From a virus: a stretch of DNA of 64,000 bases. Numbering within the stretch: the first letter of the stretch is position 1; every line of letters starts with the position of its first letter. Made by a program: the position numbers and the translations under genes. The notes beneath the pieces are model-generated. The model saw only the letters and a program-made list of their open reading frames with translations. It had not been told where the DNA came from and searched no databases. The stretch spans positions 62,876-126,875 of IMG/VR virus record IMGVR_UViG_3300037475_000240. One strand, given 5' to 3'. Of the stretch, positions 44,882-64,000 are shown one piece after another.

Positions 44882-44956
44882 TGGTGCGTCTAGGGAATTC
44901 TGCCATCCCAACCTACCAGTTTAGAATTGGTCGCTCTACTTTTGAGCTATAGACGC
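44882..44956 (-). tRNA. tRNA with CUA anticodon (amber suppressor) 1
   Basis: GCGTCTA/TAGACGC acceptor stem, GCTC/GAGC D-stem, loop TT-CTA-AA, encoded A-CCA; atypical T-loop GGCAGAA. Confidence 0.8.
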
Positions 44957-45014: not shown

Positions 45015-45716
45015 ATGAAAAAAATGACTGAAGAAAAATTAAAAGAAGCTGTAAAAAAATCAATTAGTATCGCTGGCGCTTTAAAATTTATGGAAATGAG
45101 TGTTACTACAGGTAACTATAAGTCTTTCCATAAGAAAGTAAAATTATACAATATAGATATAAATCATTTTTTAGGACAATCTCATTTACGTGGAGCTTCA
45201 CATCAAACTAAAAAAAGTATACCTCTTGCAGATATTCTTGTAGAAGATAGTATGTTCTCTAATACTGCTTCACTTAAAATAAAATTATTAAAGACAAATT
45301 TGTTAAAATATGAATGTTATAACTGTGGAATTTCTAGTTGGAAGGACAAAGATTTAATATTACAATTAGATCATATTAATGGCATTTGGAATGACAACCG
45401 TTTAGAAAACTTACGATTATTGTGTCCAAATTGTCACTCCCAAACAGAAACATTTGCTGGTCGTAATATAAATAAAAATAAAGCAAAGGAAACAATTATT
45501 TATTATTATAGTAAGTGTGAAAATTGTGAAGAGCTTGTTCAACAAAAAAACACAACTAAATGTTTAGATTGTTATCTAAAATTACAACCTACTAAAATTT
45601 CATGGCCATCAACTAAAAATTTAATCAAAATGGTAGAAGAAAGTAGTTATTTAGCGGTTGGGAAAAAACTAGGAGTTAGTGATAATGCTGTTAGAAAGAG
45701 AATAAAAAATCATTAA
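45015..45716 (+). CDS. HNH homing endonuclease within the tRNA cluster
   Basis: CYNCG..W....LQLDHING..NDNRLENLRLLCPNCHSQT; C-terminal HTH GKKLGVSDNAVRKR. Confidence 0.88.
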   Translation: MKKMTEEKLKEAVKKSISIAGALKFMEMSVTTGNYKSFHKKVKLYNIDINHFLGQSHLRGASHQTKKSIPLADILVEDSMFSNTASLKIKLLKTNLLKYECYNCGISSWKDKDLILQLDHINGIWNDNRLENLRLLCPNCHSQTETFAGRNINKNKAKETIIYYYSKCENCEELVQQKNTTKCLDCYLKLQPTKISWPSTKNLIKMVEESSYLAVGKKLGVSDNAVRKRIKNH

Positions 45717-45718
45717 AA

Positions 45719-45796
45719 TAGCTCTCTAGGTAGGATTTGAACCTACAATCATCTATTTAGAGTAGATAGCTTTAGACCACTGAGACTTACAGGAGA
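45719..45796 (-). tRNA. tRNA with CUA anticodon (amber suppressor) 2, partly degenerate
   Basis: ATCTA-CT-CTA-AA-TAGAT anticodon arm; GTAGG-TTCAAAT-CCTAC T-arm; acceptor TCTCCTG/CTAGAGA with two mismatches; ends G-CTA. Confidence 0.65.
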
Positions 45797-45801
45797 ATAG
45801 T

Positions 45802-45921
45802 TGAGGCGGCAGGTAAGATTCGCACTTACATCCTCTTCTTTAACTAAGAAGTGCTCGGTCATAAATTATTTATCATATCACGTTAATATGAGATATTTCA
45901 TTTTAATTGAGCTACTGCCAC
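45802..45921 (-). tRNA. tRNA-like gene with 52-nt D-loop; central triplet GTT
   Basis: GTGGCAG/CTGCCGC acceptor, GCTC/GAGC D-stem around 52 nt, CTTCT-TAGTTAA-AGAAG, GTAAG-TGCGAAT-CTTAC. Confidence 0.65.
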
Positions 45922-45962: not shown

Positions 45963-46697
45963 TTAAACTTGAACTCCAGCACCATAATAAGATGTAACCC
46001 ATGCATCTAAAGCAGCTTTTTCACCTGATGTGGGTTCTCCATTCCAGGCTCCAACAGCCGCAATATCTACATCAGAACTTGTTGTTGATGCATTTGATCT
46101 AGCGAATAAAACGAAAGATGGAGCATCGGAATTACCAGCATTAGCTCCAGTAACGGATGTAGATCCAGCTTTTACGTAATCAGAAGTGCTATTAGTAAAT
46201 GATGTTTCTACACGAGTGGCAACTCCAATTGTTGCTCCACCATTTACGTTAACTTGAGTTGTGTTGCTTTGTCGAATATTGACTCCACCTGATGCTTGTG
46301 AAATCGCTAAAATACCATTACCACCAGCCATAATGTATCTACCTGATAAGCTTGAACGTTGACGCAAAATTACCCAGAACCACACTGGCGTGGTACCAGG
46401 TACTGGTGGATCCCAAGTCATTGTCATAGCAGCATTATTACTACTAGTTAGACTATTTCGTGAACCAAAATTAGAATCTGCAATATTATAAGCTGGTTGT
46501 AAGCCGGTGTTAGCTTGAACAGCATTATTTCCATTTCCACTTTGATCTGCCCATAACGATGCACCTGTTACAACTGTAACTCCAAGATCCGCAATTAAAT
46601 AGAAAAAGGCTGATCTACTAGTTATAATAGACAAAGGATCAGTTGGTCCTATTTGTACTGAATTTTTTATCCAAGATATTGTTGCTGTACCAGGCAT
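45963..46697 (-). CDS. LamG/concanavalin-like beta-sandwich protein, probably virion-associated
   Basis: WADQSGNGNNAVQ...QP motif; Ser/Thr/Gly/Ala-rich. Confidence 0.55.
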   Translation of the reverse strand: MPGTATISWIKNSVQIGPTDPLSIITSRSAFFYLIADLGVTVVTGASLWADQSGNGNNAVQANTGLQPAYNIADSNFGSRNSLTSSNNAAMTMTWDPPVPGTTPVWFWVILRQRSSLSGRYIMAGGNGILAISQASGGVNIRQSNTTQVNVNGGATIGVATRVETSFTNSTSDYVKAGSTSVTGANAGNSDAPSFVLFARSNASTTSSDVDIAAVGAWNGEPTSGEKAALDAWVTSYYGAGVQV

Positions 46698-46724: not shown

Positions 46725-47063
46725 TTACTTAAATGCTAACTTTAAATTATTAACTAATTTTTTAGTTAATTTGCCGGGCTCTATACAAATTGCAGTAAGA
46801 GAATTATTTAAATCTGGTTCTAAAAATTTTGAATATTTTAACTCTAATTCTTCTGATTTATTAATTAAATTAATTAAATCACTTTCAGAAGCTACAGCTA
46901 ATAGACAAATATAATTTGAATTATTAAACCATTCTTTATCTATTTCAGGATGATCATTTGAGAATTGTCTTAAAGCATGACATAGTTGTGATGCTTGTTG
47001 ACCAAAATTCAAATCATTTCTAGTAATTACGTATAACTTATCATTTTGTTGAATCTACGACAT
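46725..47063 (-). CDS. Pth2-family peptidyl-tRNA hydrolase with in-frame TAG at codon 3
   Basis: AAGGA-8nt-ATG TCG TAG ATT CAA...; MS*IQQNDKLYVITRNDLNFGQQASQLCHA...EPDLNNSLTAICI; the YVxxRxDL motif lies upstream of the track's TTG start. Confidence 0.8.
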
Positions 47064-50377: not shown

Positions 50378-50733
50378 TGGTGTAGGCGCAGGGTATCGAA
50401 GCCCTGGTCCACAAAACGTCATTATCGAAATTCATTCACAAGCTTAGTTAATGTTAACGTCACTAACAACGTTGAAAGAATTCGCTCTCACGGGCTATCT
50501 ACATTAATTTCATGTTGAACTATATAGAGTTATCCAACACTATCTTTAGTGGGTTTATACTTCTTTGATTACCAAAAATATCTCATCTGGAAGTATCAAG
50601 TGTGCCCTTAGGCTGCTTGAGCAATGCTATTATCGTTTGCATTTGGACGTTTAATTGCTTTTTATAAGGTTGCAATCATCCTTAGCTTGCATCATTTCGA
50701 CAAATCTTTTCCATGTCGAATCCATTCGCCCAC
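50378..50733 (-). ncRNA. ssrA: tmRNA, tag (A)ANDNSIAQAA
   Basis: 5' GTGGGCGAATGGATTCGAC; 3' CAGGGCTTCGATACCCTG-CGCCTAC-ACCA with G3-U pair; tag ORF at 50608-50640. Confidence 0.92.
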
Positions 50734-50752
50734 ATATTCGTAACAACAGAAT

Positions 50753-50938
50753 TTAACTTCTGCTTTTAAATTGATTTGCTGGTATTGGATGAGCACCATT
50801 CAAATAAGAATTATATCCACCTCTACCATCATCAATCCAAACACTATTATTACCACAACTACATATTAAATAGTAATCAACACCCATGCGAGTGTCTTTA
50901 CCACAAATATGTCCGCAATTTGAACAAACATAATCCAT
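50753..50938 (-). CDS. Small zinc-ribbon protein
   Basis: CSNC...CSC; AGGA RBS. Confidence 0.55.
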   Translation of the reverse strand: MDYVCSNCGHICGKDTRMGVDYYLICSCGNNSVWIDDGRGGYNSYLNGAHPIPANQFKSRS

Positions 50939-50953
50939 ATTAATCCTAATAGT

Positions 50954-51028
50954 TGGAGCTACAGGTGAGAATCAAACTCACGACAACCTACCTACCAAGT
51001 AGGGATTCTATCACTGAATTACTGTAGC
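50954..51028 (-). tRNA. tRNA-Thr(GGT)
   Basis: GCTACAG/CTGTAGC acceptor, CCTAC-TT-GGT-AG-GTAGG, encoded CCA. Confidence 0.85.
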
Positions 51029-51116
51029 TTACTAAGATATTGATGGAGTAACAAGAGAACATTACCACCTGCCCTTTTTCTCTTAAAAATGTATAAGGTG
51101 TTTTCTTCAATATCTG

Positions 51117-51193
51117 TGGAGCCCTGGACCAGGATTTGAACCGGTGACCTGTGCCTTACAAGAGCACTGCTCTACCAACTGAGCTACCAGGGC
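51117..51193 (-). tRNA. tRNA-Thr(TGT)
   Basis: GCCCTGG/CCAGGGC acceptor, AGTTGGTA D-loop, CT-TGT-AA, TTCAAAT, encoded CCA. Confidence 0.93.
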
Positions 51194-51220
51194 ATGTATA
51201 ACATATTTTGTTATGCGTAT

Positions 51221-51248
51221 ATTATAACCACGACAAACTGACTGTCAA
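51221..51248 (-). promoter_or_regulatory. Consensus sigma70-type promoter for the tRNA-Thr/tmRNA unit
   Basis: TTGACA-N16-TATAAT, 27 nt upstream of tRNA-Thr(TGT). Confidence 0.8.
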
Positions 51249-51266
51249 TGGTTTTTATTTTAAAAA

Positions 51267-52052
51267 TTACAGTCCACCTTCTCTAAAAATATCCATACCA
51301 TTTTTTAATATATTACTTAAAAATGATTGATCTCTAGTAAAAATAGGAAGCTCAGAGTTTAAAAACCACTTAGCCTTCATTTTACCATCAACTACTTTAG
51401 GGACTTTATAGTAAGCTGTCCCTCTTTTGAAAGCGGATGGATAGTCATTAAAATCAATATTAGATTCTTGTTTTAAGAGTTCAATTTTTTCGTCTGCTCC
51501 TAATCCTGATAACATCTCTCTAATTGTATTTTTATCATGTTTCTTTAATAATTCATATAGACAGGCTTGATGAAGAGAACTCAAAAAGCTATGTTGTTGC
51601 TTATAAACCATTGTATTAATAGCTTCACCAACAGTGGGTACAGGAAAAACCTGAGATATAAAAATCGGATCACCTAATGTGTTTAACTTAATAGTACTAG
51701 CACAATCATTGAAATGCATAGTAGCAATAGCTGATGTTACTGAACATATTTTTTGAATGTTATTGTCAAACCAAGCTTCAGTATCATTGTTTTGATCATT
51801 TCTAAGTATTAAAGTGATTTCATCACTATGTTGATAGGCAAAAACTACACCTTCAACTTCATTACATATTCTTAATGAAGTATTAAAAATACATTCAGCA
51901 AATTTATTATCATAAGGCTTATCTAATAAAGATGTTAATTTAGAAAAATTCTTTCCATTTATATTAATAATAATTGGAACCTTAGCAATTAAAGTATAAT
52001 TTGTAGTTTTTTGATAAGACTCTATTCGGTCTTTTAAGGTGAGGCTAGACAT
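51267..52052 (-). CDS. Thg1-like (tRNA-His guanylyltransferase family) protein
   Basis: PIIININGKNFSKLT..KPYD, AYQHSDEITL, AWFDNNIQKICSV, FKRG. Confidence 0.85.
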   Translation of the reverse strand: MSSLTLKDRIESYQKTTNYTLIAKVPIIININGKNFSKLTSLLDKPYDNKFAECIFNTSLRICNEVEGVVFAYQHSDEITLILRNDQNNDTEAWFDNNIQKICSVTSAIATMHFNDCASTIKLNTLGDPIFISQVFPVPTVGEAINTMVYKQQHSFLSSLHQACLYELLKKHDKNTIREMLSGLGADEKIELLKQESNIDFNDYPSAFKRGTAYYKVPKVVDGKMKAKWFLNSELPIFTRDQSFLSNILKNGMDIFREGGL

Positions 52053-63374: not shown

Positions 63375-64000
63375 TCAAATCAATTTATTCTTAATGATTT
63401 CCTGGTCTTTCCAGTGCTCAGAGGTTTGAACATGTCCCTTTCTAACATTTTTTGCAATAGATTTTGCAAATGAATTATTAGAAAATTCATTTTCTACACG
63501 AGCTACTATACCTTCTCTTAATCCGCCACATAAGGAAGGTTCTTTCATAAATTGCTCGGTTAATTTTTGTAAATTGATTTCTGAATCACATATTCCTTTG
63601 AATAAGACAGGAACAGTTGGTACTTCAATTTCTTCTGCCCATAACTCTACCTCTCCCCAAGAAAGCCATTTATCACTATTTAAATCTCTAACATTAAATA
63701 AAAGAAAATAATGTGGTAATTTAGAATATGCTATTGAATGCAAAGCTAAAGTCCATTCACCAAATAATTGTATCCCTTCAGGAATTTTATATTTAACACT
63801 TGCATGTAATGCTTTTAATCCATCAAAAGATGCATGGTTTGGCGGACCAGAATGTGTACGAGCAAAACACCCTTCTTTTTCTAAAGACGTATTACTTCCA
63901 TCCATTTTTTCAGTAATCACAATATTATTGTTAATTAATAAAGATATGTCATCTGAAATTTTATCATCATTAGTACAGCCCAAAGACCAGGAAAAATGTG
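63375..64000 (-). CDS. ATP-dependent RNA ligase family protein (5' end outside the window)
   Basis: HFSWSLG.T.DDK, TEKMDGSN (motif I), LFGE, REGIVAR; frame is open to the window edge. Confidence 0.85.
   Translation of the reverse strand, partial: HFSWSLGCTNDDKISDDISLLINNNIVITEKMDGSNTSLEKEGCFARTHSGPPNHASFDGLKALHASVKYKIPEGIQLFGEWTLALHSIAYSKLPHYFLLFNVRDLNSDKWLSWGEVELWAEEIEVPTVPVLFKGICDSEINLQKLTEQFMKEPSLCGGLREGIVARVENEFSNNSFAKSIAKNVRKGHVQTSEHWKDQEIIKNKLI

What the first reader, a model, noticed from the sequence alone, without database searches (positions are those of the whole stretch)
45802..45921. tRNA-like gene with a structured 52-nt D-loop and a His-like acceptor end
Seen: all four stems pair, but the D-loop (45857-45908) is 52 nt and holds a hairpin TCATATTA-ACG-TGATATGA. 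The anticodon loop TAGTTAA lacks U33. The 5' GTGGC.. start and C73 resemble tRNA-His without G-1, while the central triplet is GTT (Asn). Inference: a non-canonical intron, a decoy or tRNA mimic, or a substrate for the encoded RNA ligase and Thg1-like protein.
Basis: partly seen in the sequence, partly recalled or inferred. Interest (0 to 1): 0.7.

Follow-up and report, generated by a model that had tools for sequence, protein, structure and literature searches.

The report
Five-armed tRNA look-alike of huge phages
This giant soil phage carries a conserved gene for a tRNA-shaped RNA with a folded 52-base extra arm in its D loop, placed directly before a stop-codon-reading tRNA; it is probably a tRNA mimic and not an ordinary codon reader.

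Summary
On the minus strand, 45805-45921 folds as a full cloverleaf (Rfam tRNA 41.4 bits, cut-off 29) with a 52-nt D loop, A33, G55 and C73. It is neither chance nor a decaying insertion.

I found 14 distinct family members, all on huge-phage or metagenome contigs. On the 13 aligned, 95% of cells pair and 21 of 30 pairs show changes on both sides. That includes two helices inside the insert. Between those helices lies a sarcin-ricin-like GAA/AGUA internal loop. The apical 7-nt loop has an almost invariant, self-complementary ACGU core.

Every member has an amber (CUA) tRNA within 2 kb, and in 9 of 14 it starts 8 nt or less downstream. Where checked, the locus also holds tRNA-Thr genes, tmRNA and PTH2.

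The "anticodon" loop is irregular: 6, 7 or 8 nt, with A33 in 8 of 14 and central triplets GUU, UUU or GAU.

My best reading (0.45) is that the arm is kept and the RNA is a tRNA mimic. Rival readings are an odd decoder and a spliced intron.

The His-like, Thg1 and RNA-ligase ideas gain no support. No RNA data exist.

This scan noted other D-loop-arm tRNAs before on other DNA. I found no paper describing them.

The parts
45805..45921 (-). Gene for the five-armed tRNA-like RNA (G1 at 45921, discriminator C at 45805)
   Evidence: Rfam RF00005 41.4 bits, cut-off 29. Own models R1 150.9 bits and R2 119.2 bits. Cloverleaf minimum-free-energy fold. 13 homologs.
45857..45908 (-). 52-nt D-loop insertion forming an extended D arm
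   Evidence: Sequence. Covariation of its two helices on 13 sequences. Not repeated elsewhere in the 126,875-nt record.
45900..45903 (-). Insert helix Pi1, 5' strand (pairs with 45863-45866)
   Evidence: RNAalifold predicted it without my input. 4 of 4 pairs change on both sides and 84% of cells pair. It was not part of the model the alignment was fitted to.
45863..45866 (-). Insert helix Pi1, 3' strand
45896..45899 (-). GAAA of the internal loop between Pi1 and Pi2. It faces AAUA at 45867-45870, where 12 of 14 members have AGUA.
   Evidence: Segment table. AGUA/GAA is the classical sarcin-ricin motif sequence (PMC1865062 passages).
45874..45891 (-). Insert hairpin Pi2 with the 7-nt apical loop UAACGUG (45879-45885)
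   Evidence: 5 of 5 pairs change on both sides and 100% of cells pair. The loop core AACGU is invariant in the 13 of 14 members that have the heptaloop.
45835..45851 (-). Anticodon-type arm; loop UAGUUAA at 45840-45846 (A33, GUU, U32/A38 able to pair)
   Evidence: Stem covaries in 5 of 5 pairs. Loop length and sequence vary across the family.
45813..45829 (-). T arm with loop UGCGAAU (G55)
   Evidence: G55 in 14 of 14 members.
45721..45796 (-). Amber-suppressor-type tRNA(CUA) starting 8 nt after the tRNA-like RNA; likely co-transcribed
   Evidence: ARAGORN. Rfam gives only 25.8 bits. The same arrangement, 8 nt or less apart, occurs in 9 of 14 loci.
44885..44956 (-). Second tRNA with a CUA anticodon
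   Evidence: Rfam 43.7 bits. In G001 the two CUA tRNAs are adjacent.
46725..47012 (-). PTH2 peptidyl-tRNA hydrolase gene, conserved upstream neighbour
   Evidence: Pfam PF01981 in the window, G001 and G005.
50378..50733 (-). tmRNA gene, start of the conserved synteny block together with the tRNA-Thr genes at 50954-51193
   Evidence: Rfam 104.5 bits. The same order holds in 6 other loci long enough to show it.

Best explanation
Shown: 45805-45921 (-) is a real, conserved gene for a tRNA-shaped RNA with five arms. The 52 extra bases in the D loop form a rod of two helices that covaries across relatives. The helices are separated by a sarcin-ricin-like GAA/AGUA internal loop (AAUA in this copy), and the rod is capped by a 7-nt loop whose ACGU core is almost invariant and self-complementary. 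The gene lies in a fixed translation-rescue neighbourhood of a clade of roughly 430-480-kb phages: tRNA-Thr genes, tmRNA, PTH2, this RNA, amber tRNA(CUA).

Inferred: it is transcribed together with the amber tRNA that starts 8 nt downstream, and it is released by the usual tRNA end-processing enzymes. The acceptor stem, discriminator and T arm are kept, and CCA is encoded in 5 of 14 members. The arm stays in the mature RNA. The elbow is probably kept through a single conserved G in the 3' part of the D loop that would pair with C56.

Most likely function (speculative): it does not act as an ordinary elongator tRNA. It is a stable tRNA mimic. Its anticodon-type loop keeps the U36-A37-A38 look of Lys/Asn/Ile tRNAs, while the arm serves as a docking or dimerisation handle. 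I consider two candidate roles. One is to compete for host factors that bind or cut such tRNAs, for example anticodon-arm nucleases of anti-phage systems. The other is to tune maturation or use of the neighbouring amber suppressor.
For: Reality and conservation:
- Rfam tRNA scores 41.4 bits against a cut-off of 29.
- There are 14 distinct members. Pairwise identity among the 13 aligned is 51-96%.
- On those 13 sequences 95.1% of cells pair, against 73.4% in shuffles and 48.5% or less with slid partners. 21 of 30 pairs change on both sides, and 0 of 500 shuffles reach the score.
- Both insert helices covary (4 of 4 and 5 of 5 pairs). Pi1 was predicted by RNAalifold independently of the model used for the alignment.
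- About 20 G-U cells fit only this strand.

Conserved loops: AACGU is invariant in the 13 of 14 members with the heptaloop, GAA is present in 13 of 14 and AGUA in 12 of 14. The motif identity rests on PMC1865062 passages.

Against ordinary decoding:
- The anticodon loop is 7 nt with A33 in 8 members, 8 nt in 3, 6 nt in 1, and canonical (U33) in only 2 of 14.
- The central triplet differs between close relatives: GUU here, UUU in G001, whose DnaE is 87% identical.
- G001 has its own canonical tRNA-Lys(UUU).
- Other D-arm-expanded tRNA-like genes in related phages have anticodon arms closed by 4-nt loops: L065 and L212.

tRNA-type processing: spacers of 8 nt or less to the CUA tRNA in 9 of 14; CCA encoded in 5 of 14.

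Plausibility of the role:
- PARIS AriB cuts tRNA-Lys(UUU), Thr(UGU) and Asn(GUU), which share U36-A-A-U.
- T5 tRNA variants rescue infection, and the authors note that viral tRNAs may also inhibit by competition (PMC12409363 passages).
- Phage tRNAs are proposed to evade tRNA nucleases through anticodon-loop changes (PMC10264068 passages).
Against: - No RNA data: neither expression, nor size, nor end structure, nor charging is known (one search listed no RNA run).
- G55 and a D loop without GG are not diagnostic. Many normal-length phage tRNAs with canonical anticodon loops and CCA have the same T loop.
- Two members (G018, L200) have a fully canonical 7-nt loop with U33 and GAU.
- Positions 34-38 always look like a genuine ANN-reading tRNA, and Lys, Asn and Ile codons are the ones an AT-rich phage uses most.
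- From recall, U33 is not absolutely required for suppression in vitro.
- No nuclease, binding partner or dimer has been shown.
- The self-complementarity of ACGU is a post-hoc observation.
- This copy lacks the bulged G of the AGUA motif.
- An earlier scan note on a different A33/UUU phage tRNA family reports that a similar 'conflict mimic' reading was later priced at 5 in 100.
Confidence: 0.45

Rival explanations
1. It is a working elongator tRNA (Asn-type here, Lys- or Ile-type in relatives) that simply carries a fifth arm. The arm and the changes at positions 32-33 might make it resistant to host tRNA nucleases or mark it for a phage factor.
For: The cloverleaf is complete with covarying stems. 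Positions 34-38 match ANN-reading tRNAs in 13 of 14 members, and U36-A37-A38 is invariant in those 13. Two members have canonical U33 loops. CCA is encoded in 5 of 14. The G55-type T loop is shared with apparently normal phage tRNAs. Phage tRNA variants that resist nucleases are documented (PMC12409363, PMC10264068). Scan note e1-3037527 reports a D-loop-arm tRNA-Glu thought to decode.
Against: 12 of 14 anticodon loops are non-canonical in ways kept across deep divergence: A33 in 8, 8 nt in 3, 6 nt in 1. The anticodon differs between close relatives. The pyrimidine discriminator does not fit Lys, Asn or Ile identity as I recall it. G001 already has a normal tRNA-Lys(UUU). The arm's apical loop is more conserved than the anticodon loop.
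Confidence: 0.27
2. The 52 nt are an intervening sequence that is cut out and the halves rejoined, by phage or host enzymes, to give a tRNA of normal length.
For: Removing the arm at the base of Pi1 would leave a D loop of about 9 nt, similar to those of the normal-length G55-type phage tRNAs. These phages encode 2-5 RNA ligase genes each. They also have other tRNA genes with 44-60-nt insertions in the anticodon arm. A conserved structure could be the recognition element of a splicing enzyme.
Against: No tRNA-splicing endonuclease domain (PF01974) and no RtcB in 5 of 5 carrier records, 2 of them complete. The controls found PF01974 in all 4 archaea. By eye there is no bulge-helix-bulge geometry, since the junctions are internal loops. 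At 52 nt it is far too small for a group I intron. The product would still have A33 or loops of 6 or 8 nt. The RNA ligases are equally present in relatives without this gene.
Confidence: 0.1
3. It is a cis-acting leader. This tRNA-shaped module would direct processing, stability or timing of the amber suppressor tRNA made from the same transcript, with the arm as binding site for a regulator. It would have no function of its own after cleavage.
For: An amber tRNA lies within 2 kb on the same strand in 14 of 14 loci and 8 nt or less downstream in 9 of 14. No member was found without a CUA tRNA nearby.
Against: In 5 of 14 loci the two genes are 0.9-1.7 kb apart, and in one of those the order is reversed. 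Relatives G002 and G003 keep the CUA tRNA without it. In this window the CUA tRNA looks degraded (25.8 bits, two acceptor mismatches) while the tRNA-like RNA is intact.
Confidence: 0.1
4. It is a tRNA pseudogene disrupted by a chance or mobile insertion.
For: ARAGORN does not call it. The region is a hot spot for insertions, with an HNH gene and a 244-aa ORF that are absent in G001.
Against: The insert is kept in all 14 members, with compensatory changes in both of its helices. It is not repeated elsewhere in the record. All four tRNA stems are intact.
Confidence: 0.03
5. It is a tRNA-His-like substrate that the phage Thg1-like enzyme extends with G-1 opposite C73 and/or that the RNA ligase repairs.
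For: C73 and G1 in this copy. Thg1-like (51267-52052) and RNA ligase (63375-63983) genes are in the window.
Against: C73 occurs in only 5 of 14 members and U73 in 9. No member has a GUG anticodon. The base at -1 is U or A. Both enzymes occur in 7 of 7 near-complete relatives, including 5 without this RNA.
Confidence: 0.03

Closest known systems
Canonical elongator tRNA (Rfam RF00005), in particular the normal-length phage tRNAs with a GGUGCRAAUCC T arm seen
   Same: 7-bp acceptor stem, U8, 4-bp D stem, 5-bp anticodon stem, 5-nt variable loop, T arm, discriminator. T loop with G55 and a D loop without GG, as in those phage tRNAs.
   Different: A 52-nt (49-66 nt in relatives) two-helix arm inside the D loop. 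The anticodon loop has A33 or is 6 or 8 nt long in 12 of 14 members. tRNA finders do not call it.
Non-proteogenic tRNA-Gly of Staphylococcus aureus (PMC13443448, passages read)
   Same: Lacks G18-G19 and U55. A possible extra 32-38 pair would shorten the anticodon loop. These are tRNA-shaped molecules that are processed like tRNAs but kept out of translation.
   Different: Those are 75-nt Gly(UCC) tRNAs of a bacterium, used by Fem transferases. This one has a large D arm and an ANN-type loop, is phage-encoded, and has no known transferase partner.
Phage T5 tRNA-Lys(UUU), Thr(UGU) and Asn(GUU) variants that neutralise the PARIS nuclease AriB (PMC12409363 passages; PMC11464382 listing only)
   Same: Phage-encoded RNAs with Lys/Asn-type anticodon arms that differ from host tRNAs near the loop. 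Here too, Thr tRNAs lie in the same block. Possible action by competition.
   Different: The T5 tRNAs are canonical, functional decoders with point changes in the anticodon stem. No extra arm, and no defence system is known for this phage's host.
Class II tRNAs (long variable arm)
   Same: A natural fifth helical arm on a tRNA body.
   Different: Their arm leaves from the variable region, is 3-7 bp with a small loop, and serves synthetase recognition. Here it leaves from the D loop and carries an internal-loop motif and a conserved heptaloop.
Archaeal and some eukaryal tRNA introns at non-canonical positions, including the D loop (PMC3241643, listing and abstract only)
   Same: An intervening stretch of tens of nucleotides inside the D loop of a tRNA gene.
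   Different: Those are flanked by a bulge-helix-bulge motif and removed by EndA-type endonucleases. This is a phage of bacteria (it carries tmRNA), with no EndA or RtcB and no such motif.
Stable 'species 1' and 'species 2' RNAs encoded in the phage T4 tRNA cluster (recalled, no call)
   Same: Small stable RNAs of unknown function, longer than tRNAs and co-transcribed and processed with phage tRNAs.
   Different: Any relationship is unknown.

Membership tests
Canonical tRNA (RF00005) | Cloverleaf with four stems, scoring above the curated cut-off | tested here: met
   41.4 bits against 29. All stems pair and covary.
Canonical tRNA (RF00005) | D loop of about 7-11 nt with G18-G19 | tested here: not met
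   52-nt D loop with no GG. 49-66 nt in the relatives.
Canonical tRNA (RF00005) | T loop with U54-U55-C56 | tested here: not met
   UGCGAAU, and G55 in 14 of 14 members. The same T loop occurs in normal-length phage tRNAs, so this alone does not exclude function.
Canonical tRNA (RF00005) | 7-nt anticodon loop with U33 | tested here: not met
   The window has A33. Only 2 of 14 members have a 7-nt loop with U33.
Canonical tRNA (RF00005) | Aminoacylation and decoding on the ribosome | not testable with these tools
   No RNA or biochemical data; no RNA run listed.
tRNA-His | G-1 paired with C73 | tested here: not met
   Base -1 is U. C73 occurs in 5 of 14 members and U73 in 9.
tRNA-His | GUG anticodon | tested here: not met
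   GUU here; UUU or GAU in the relatives.
tRNA with a protein-spliced (bulge-helix-bulge) intron | Two 3-nt bulges around a 4-bp helix at the exon-intron borders | tested here: not met
   By eye on the consensus structure: Pi1 has 4 bp, but both of its junctions are internal loops of 4-13 nt on both strands.
tRNA with a protein-spliced (bulge-helix-bulge) intron | Splicing endonuclease and ligase available | tested here: not met
   PF01974 in 0 of 5 and RtcB in 0 of 5 carrier records. Host enzymes are unknown. Rnl-type ligases are present.
tRNA with a protein-spliced (bulge-helix-bulge) intron | A mature RNA lacking the insert | not testable with these tools
   No RNA run holds the locus.
Group I intron in a tRNA gene | A core of about 200 nt or more with P3-P7 (recalled), usually in the anticodon loop | tested here: not met
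   52 nt, in the D loop. Rfam found no intron family at E up to 10.
Sarcin-ricin / loop E internal-loop motif | AGUA opposite GAA, flanking a helix in the right strand order | tested here: inconclusive
   Sequence and strand order fit in 12 of 14 members. This window copy has AAUA. The consensus comes from PMC1865062. No 3D evidence.
Non-proteogenic tRNA-Gly type | Gly identity, UCC anticodon and Fem-type transferases | tested here: not met
   The anticodon-type triplet is GUU, UUU or GAU. No Fem-like domain among the 43 window ORFs scanned. This is an analogy only.

The most novel reading that the evidence does not exclude
Huge phages make a class of five-armed tRNA mimics. Their D-loop arm (sarcin-ricin-like module plus a self-complementary apical loop) would let them dimerise or dock onto a partner. 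Produced from one transcript with an amber-suppressor tRNA, they would either disarm host nucleases that attack Lys/Asn/Ile-type tRNAs or gate stop-codon read-through during infection. That would be a new kind of RNA-based counter-defence or translation control built on the tRNA fold.
Probability: 0.18. Interest if true: 0.85.

Novelty: new variant of a known kind. Interest (0 to 1): 0.64.

Why it matters
The D loop has been regarded as one of the most constrained parts of tRNA, because it forms the elbow. Here a natural, conserved family carries a 50-nt structured arm at that position. This shows that the fold tolerates, and evolution exploits, a fifth arm at the elbow.

The constant company of amber-suppressor tRNAs, tmRNA and PTH2 ties the RNA to how giant phages take over or protect translation. 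If it is a mimic, it adds an RNA decoy to the tRNA-centred arms race between phages and bacterial immunity. If it decodes, it is a natural precedent for engineering handles into tRNAs.

There is also a practical point. Standard tRNA finders miss these genes, so the tRNA-like content of huge phages is under-annotated.

Tried and rejected
Searches that found nothing useful:
- An exact two-part pattern of this gene in IMG/VR gave 0 hits.
- Relatives of the 244-aa upstream ORF (L001, L002) hold no tRNA genes. That ORF is an insertion in this phage and not a conserved neighbour.
- BLAST of the 120 nt against GenBank phages gave only short partial matches in 7 records (36% coverage or less, E 0.1 or more).
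- The 634-kb phage LR745206.1 has 63 tRNA matches. One is 124 nt long, but its insert is in the anticodon arm, not the D loop.

Mobile-element test: the insert has no second copy in the 126,875-nt record.

False leads:
- BLAST hits in G004 and G008 were chance matches inside coding sequence.
- Of the pattern hits, L070 and L072 are chance matches. L069 holds only a 5'-half-like fragment.
- 30 pattern hits in bacterial and archaeal genomes: 0 were confirmed by the model.

Uninformative or absent data:
- The promoter and terminator scan was uninformative in this AT-rich DNA.
- Sequencing runs: no RNA holder is listed, only two soil DNA runs, one of them possibly the source.

Ideas considered by eye and dropped:
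- A k-turn (the GA dinucleotides are not next to the helices).
- A hammerhead or other small ribozyme (no core motifs).
- A spare Arg(ACG) anticodon arm in the heptaloop that would recruit a synthetase (4 of 7 loop positions do not fit; no geometric argument).
- Pairing of the heptaloop with the T loop (both are invariant, so it cannot be tested by covariation).
- A promoter inside the insert (present only in this AT-rich copy).

I first took G55 as evidence against decoding and withdrew that.

Not used: protein-structure tools, the search for homologous proteins, complex prediction and the protein atlas. Supplementary files of the papers were not opened. They may hold tRNA alignments that bear on A33 or G55 in phage tRNAs.
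Full report
WHERE THE WINDOW LIES. The window is the second half of a 126,875-nt IMG/VR virus record, estimated 29% complete. GC content is about 30%. The standard genetic code fits: ORFs of 100 aa or more cover 94% of the record, and TAG ends only 4 of 168 such ORFs.

The genes are those of a huge phage with its own translation toolkit. I found a DnaE-type polymerase, RecA, topoisomerase, trigger factor, two ClpP genes, IF3, PTH2, an RNase T-like exonuclease, a Thg1-like protein, an RNA ligase, tmRNA and several tRNAs. Relatives found through DnaE (38 loci) include complete genomes of 430-480 kb. A sequencing-run look-up listed only two soil DNA runs.

THE OBSERVATION.
- a 7-bp acceptor stem, a 4-bp D stem, a 5-bp anticodon stem and a 5-bp T stem;
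- a D loop of exactly 52 nt (45857-45908) holding an 8-bp hairpin around ACG;
- the anticodon loop UAGUUAA, with A where U33 should be;
- C73, and no encoded CCA.

Rfam's tRNA model scores the stretch 41.4 bits against a cut-off of 29, treating 49 nt as an insertion in the D loop. ARAGORN and the fast-filtered Rfam run miss it. The minimum-free-energy fold is the cloverleaf with a long D-arm hairpin (z = -2.8).

HOMOLOGS KEEP THE INSERT. The closest complete relative, G001 (DnaE 87% identical), has the same gene with a 57-nt D loop. It also has compensatory changes in the acceptor, anticodon, T and insert stems.

I built a covariance model from these two sequences (R1) and used it with two motif scans of IMG/VR and one of the metagenome collection. 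Matches were confirmed with R1. A second model, R2, was then built from 13 sequences and searched. Together these gave 14 distinct members. All lie on phage or metagenome contigs. None of the 30 motif hits in bacterial and archaeal genomes was confirmed.

Among 37 related records searched with R2, 6 hold a full-length member, and so do 2 of the 7 records that are near-complete. In G002 and G003 the syntenic region keeps the tmRNA, a CUA tRNA and tRNA-Arg(CCU) but has no such gene. The gene is therefore accessory. I found no homolog without the insert.

STRUCTURE. On the 13 aligned sequences (51-96% identical, mean 65%):
- 95.1% of cells form standard pairs, against 73.4% after shuffling and 48.5% or less with slid partners;
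- 21 of 30 pairs change on both sides;
- 0 of 500 shuffles reach the covariation score.

RNAalifold, run without my structure, predicts the tRNA stems plus two helices inside the insert.
- Pi1 has 4 bp. All 4 pairs change on both sides and 84% of cells pair. It was absent from the model the alignment was fitted to.
- Pi2 has 5 bp. All 5 pairs change on both sides and 100% of cells pair.

About 20 G-U cells fit only this strand, so the constraint acts on RNA and not on a DNA palindrome.

Between Pi1 and Pi2 the 5' strand reads GAA(A) in 13 of 14 members and the 3' strand reads AGUA in 12 of 14. This window copy has AAUA. AGUA/GAA in this strand order is the classical sarcin-ricin motif (PMC1865062, passages). 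No 3D evidence exists here.

Pi2 is capped by a 7-nt loop of the form K-AACGU-R in 13 of 14 members, with AACGU invariant. Its ACGU core is self-complementary. The fourteenth member (G024) has a 17-nt loop that holds an 8-nt palindrome instead. A second class of D-arm-expanded tRNA-like genes in related phages (L059, L065) also carries GAAA, ACGU and AGUAG in its arm. Dimerisation through these loops is an idea, not a result.

A single G in the 3' part of the D loop is invariant, four bases before the D stem. It could pair with C56 as G19 does in ordinary tRNA. The L shape may therefore be kept, with the arm leaving the D loop between positions 17 and 18. This is inference.

NEIGHBOURHOOD. The order of genes is conserved wherever the contig is long enough: tRNA-Thr genes, tmRNA, an M23 peptidase, a protein of about 185 aa, PTH2, this RNA, tRNA(CUA), often a second tRNA(CUA), then tRNA-Arg(CCU).

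A CUA tRNA lies on the same strand within 2 kb in 14 of 14 loci:
- 8 nt or less downstream in 9;
- 0.9-1.7 kb downstream in 4;
- 1.2 kb upstream in 1.

The adjacent CUA tRNAs have U1-A72 and G73, which I recall as glutamine-type features. They have normal D and T loops.

In this window an HNH endonuclease gene (45015-45716, +) separates the two CUA tRNAs, and a 244-aa ORF separates PTH2 from the tRNA-like gene. Neither is there in G001.

DOES IT DECODE? Several points speak against ordinary decoding.
- The anticodon-type loop is 7 nt with A33 in 8 members, 8 nt in 3, 6 nt in 1, and canonical in only 2.
- These forms are kept across deep divergence, so they are features and not recent damage.
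- The central triplet is GUU here, UUU in six members and GAU in six, and it differs even between the window and G001.
- G001 has its own ordinary tRNA-Lys(UUU).
- U32 and A38 could pair and shrink the loop.
- Two further classes of D-arm-expanded tRNA-like genes in related phages have anticodon arms closed by 4-nt loops (L065; L212).

Other points keep a decoder reading alive.
- Positions 34-38 always look like a Lys, Asn or Ile tRNA, and U36-A37-A38 is invariant in 13 of 14.
- CCA is encoded in 5 of 14.
- The G55 T loop, which I first read as a sign of a non-ribosomal tRNA, is shared by many normal-length phage tRNAs with canonical loops.

I therefore put 0.45 on a non-decoding mimic and 0.27 on a specialised decoder.

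INTRON? The carriers encode no EndA-type endonuclease domain and no RtcB (0 of 5 each). There is no bulge-helix-bulge geometry. The insert is too short for a self-splicing intron. Removing it would not repair the anticodon loop.

On the other side, these phages encode 2-5 Rnl-type RNA ligases each and have other tRNA genes with 44-60-nt inserts in the anticodon arm. Some RNA cutting and joining cannot be ruled out without RNA data. I put 0.10 on this reading.

THE HIS, THG1 AND LIGASE IDEA. C73 is present in 5 of 14 members, -1 is never G, and no anticodon is GUG. Thg1-like and RNA-ligase genes occur in 7 of 7 near-complete relatives, 5 of which lack this RNA. There is no specific link.

WHAT IT MAY DO. 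The literature offers two relevant precedents.
- tRNA-shaped molecules can be kept out of translation by just these departures. [quoted passage not shown]
- Bacterial immune nucleases attack exactly the tRNAs that this RNA imitates. PARIS AriB cuts Lys(UUU), Thr(UGU) and Asn(GUU), which share U36-A-A-U. T5 tRNA variants rescue infection, possibly also by competition (PMC12409363, passages). PrrC and the colicins are discussed in PMC10264068 (passages).

My preferred mechanism is a stable, tRNA-processed mimic that competes for such tRNA-binding factors, with the arm as a handle. An alternative is an RNA that modulates the neighbouring amber suppressor. Both roles are inference.

IN PRINT? Three full-text searches turned up no description of a tRNA or tRNA-like RNA with a structured D-loop arm in phages. 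The search themes were:
- phage, tRNA, D-loop, insertion and suppressor;
- huge phages, tRNA, intron and D-loop;
- bacteriophage, tRNA-like, D-arm and jumbo phage.
Subscription journals are not covered.

This scan's own notes report other D-loop-arm tRNAs on other DNA (e1-5822482, e1-6079827, e1-3037527) and another A33/UUU phage tRNA family (e1-3451191). I did not see their sequences. By short-word look-up, my family matches only notes on this same window.

VERDICT. It is a real, conserved, structured RNA gene and a new variant of the tRNA kind. Its function is open. Interest is 0.64.

Noticed in passing
window 45721-45796 (-): The CUA tRNA directly after the tRNA-like gene scores only 25.8 bits with Rfam (cut-off 29). 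It has two mismatches in its acceptor stem and a poor D arm. Its G001 ortholog scores 58.4 bits with a perfect stem. This copy may be decaying while the tRNA-like gene beside it is intact.
   Followed up: partly
window 45015-45716 (+): An HNH endonuclease ORF (weak Pfam HNH match; about 70% DNA identity to HNH or F-Tfl-type genes of T4- and T5-like phages) sits between the two CUA tRNA genes. In G001 these two tRNAs are 5 nt apart. It looks like a homing-endonuclease insertion in the tRNA block.
   Followed up: partly
window 45963-46697 (-): A 244-aa ORF without a Pfam match lies between PTH2 and the tRNA-like gene. It is absent at this place in G001. Distant relatives (33-38% identity) lie on two other viral contigs with no tRNAs nearby.
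   Followed up: partly
window 44885-44956 (-): A second tRNA with a CUA anticodon is found by Rfam (43.7 bits) but missed by ARAGORN. The phage uses TAG as a stop in only 4 of 168 long ORFs of the record.
   Followed up: partly
window 50378-52052 (-): tmRNA (104.5 bits), two tRNA-Thr genes and a Thg1-like gene form the start of a block. The order (Thr tRNAs, tmRNA, M23 peptidase, PTH2, tRNA-like RNA, CUA tRNAs, tRNA-Arg CCU) is conserved across the clade.
   Followed up: partly
loci L197 2541-2619, L201 1109-1188, L193 1654-1733, L185 1394-1473 and others: Many normal-length phage tRNAs have G55 (T arm GGUGCRAAUCC) and a short D loop with a single G. They also have canonical anticodon loops (Thr UGU, Arg CCU, Ile GAU) and CCA. 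This looks like a widespread G18/U55-less tRNA design in phages.
   Followed up: no
L059 1505-1633, L065 1505-1633 (G005 and G007 tRNA arrays): A second class of 129-nt tRNA-like genes has a D-loop arm (GAAA, ACGU and AGUAG motifs), G55 and an encoded CCA. In L065 the anticodon arm is closed by a 4-nt loop.
   Followed up: partly
L212 70-185 (G012:39665-39784): A third kind of D-loop-expanded tRNA-like gene has a canonical T loop, an encoded CCA and an anticodon arm closed by a 4-nt loop.
   Followed up: partly
L134 214-303, 2553-2689, 4232-4368 (G001); L004 725-848 (LR745206.1): These are tRNA genes with 13-60-nt structured insertions in the anticodon arm. One holds an internal T-arm-like hairpin. 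ARAGORN calls them introns.
   Followed up: no
L069 2300-2470 (-): This is a fragment with the 5' acceptor strand, the D stem and the arm motifs (GAAA, UAACGUG, GAACC-GAGCA) but no recognisable anticodon or T arm after it. It may be a broken copy of the family on another 129-kb viral contig.
   Followed up: no
handles G001-G006, G009: Each near-complete relative encodes 2-5 RNA_ligase (PF09414) matches and 1-2 Thg1-like genes. That is a heavy investment in RNA end repair across the clade.
   Followed up: no
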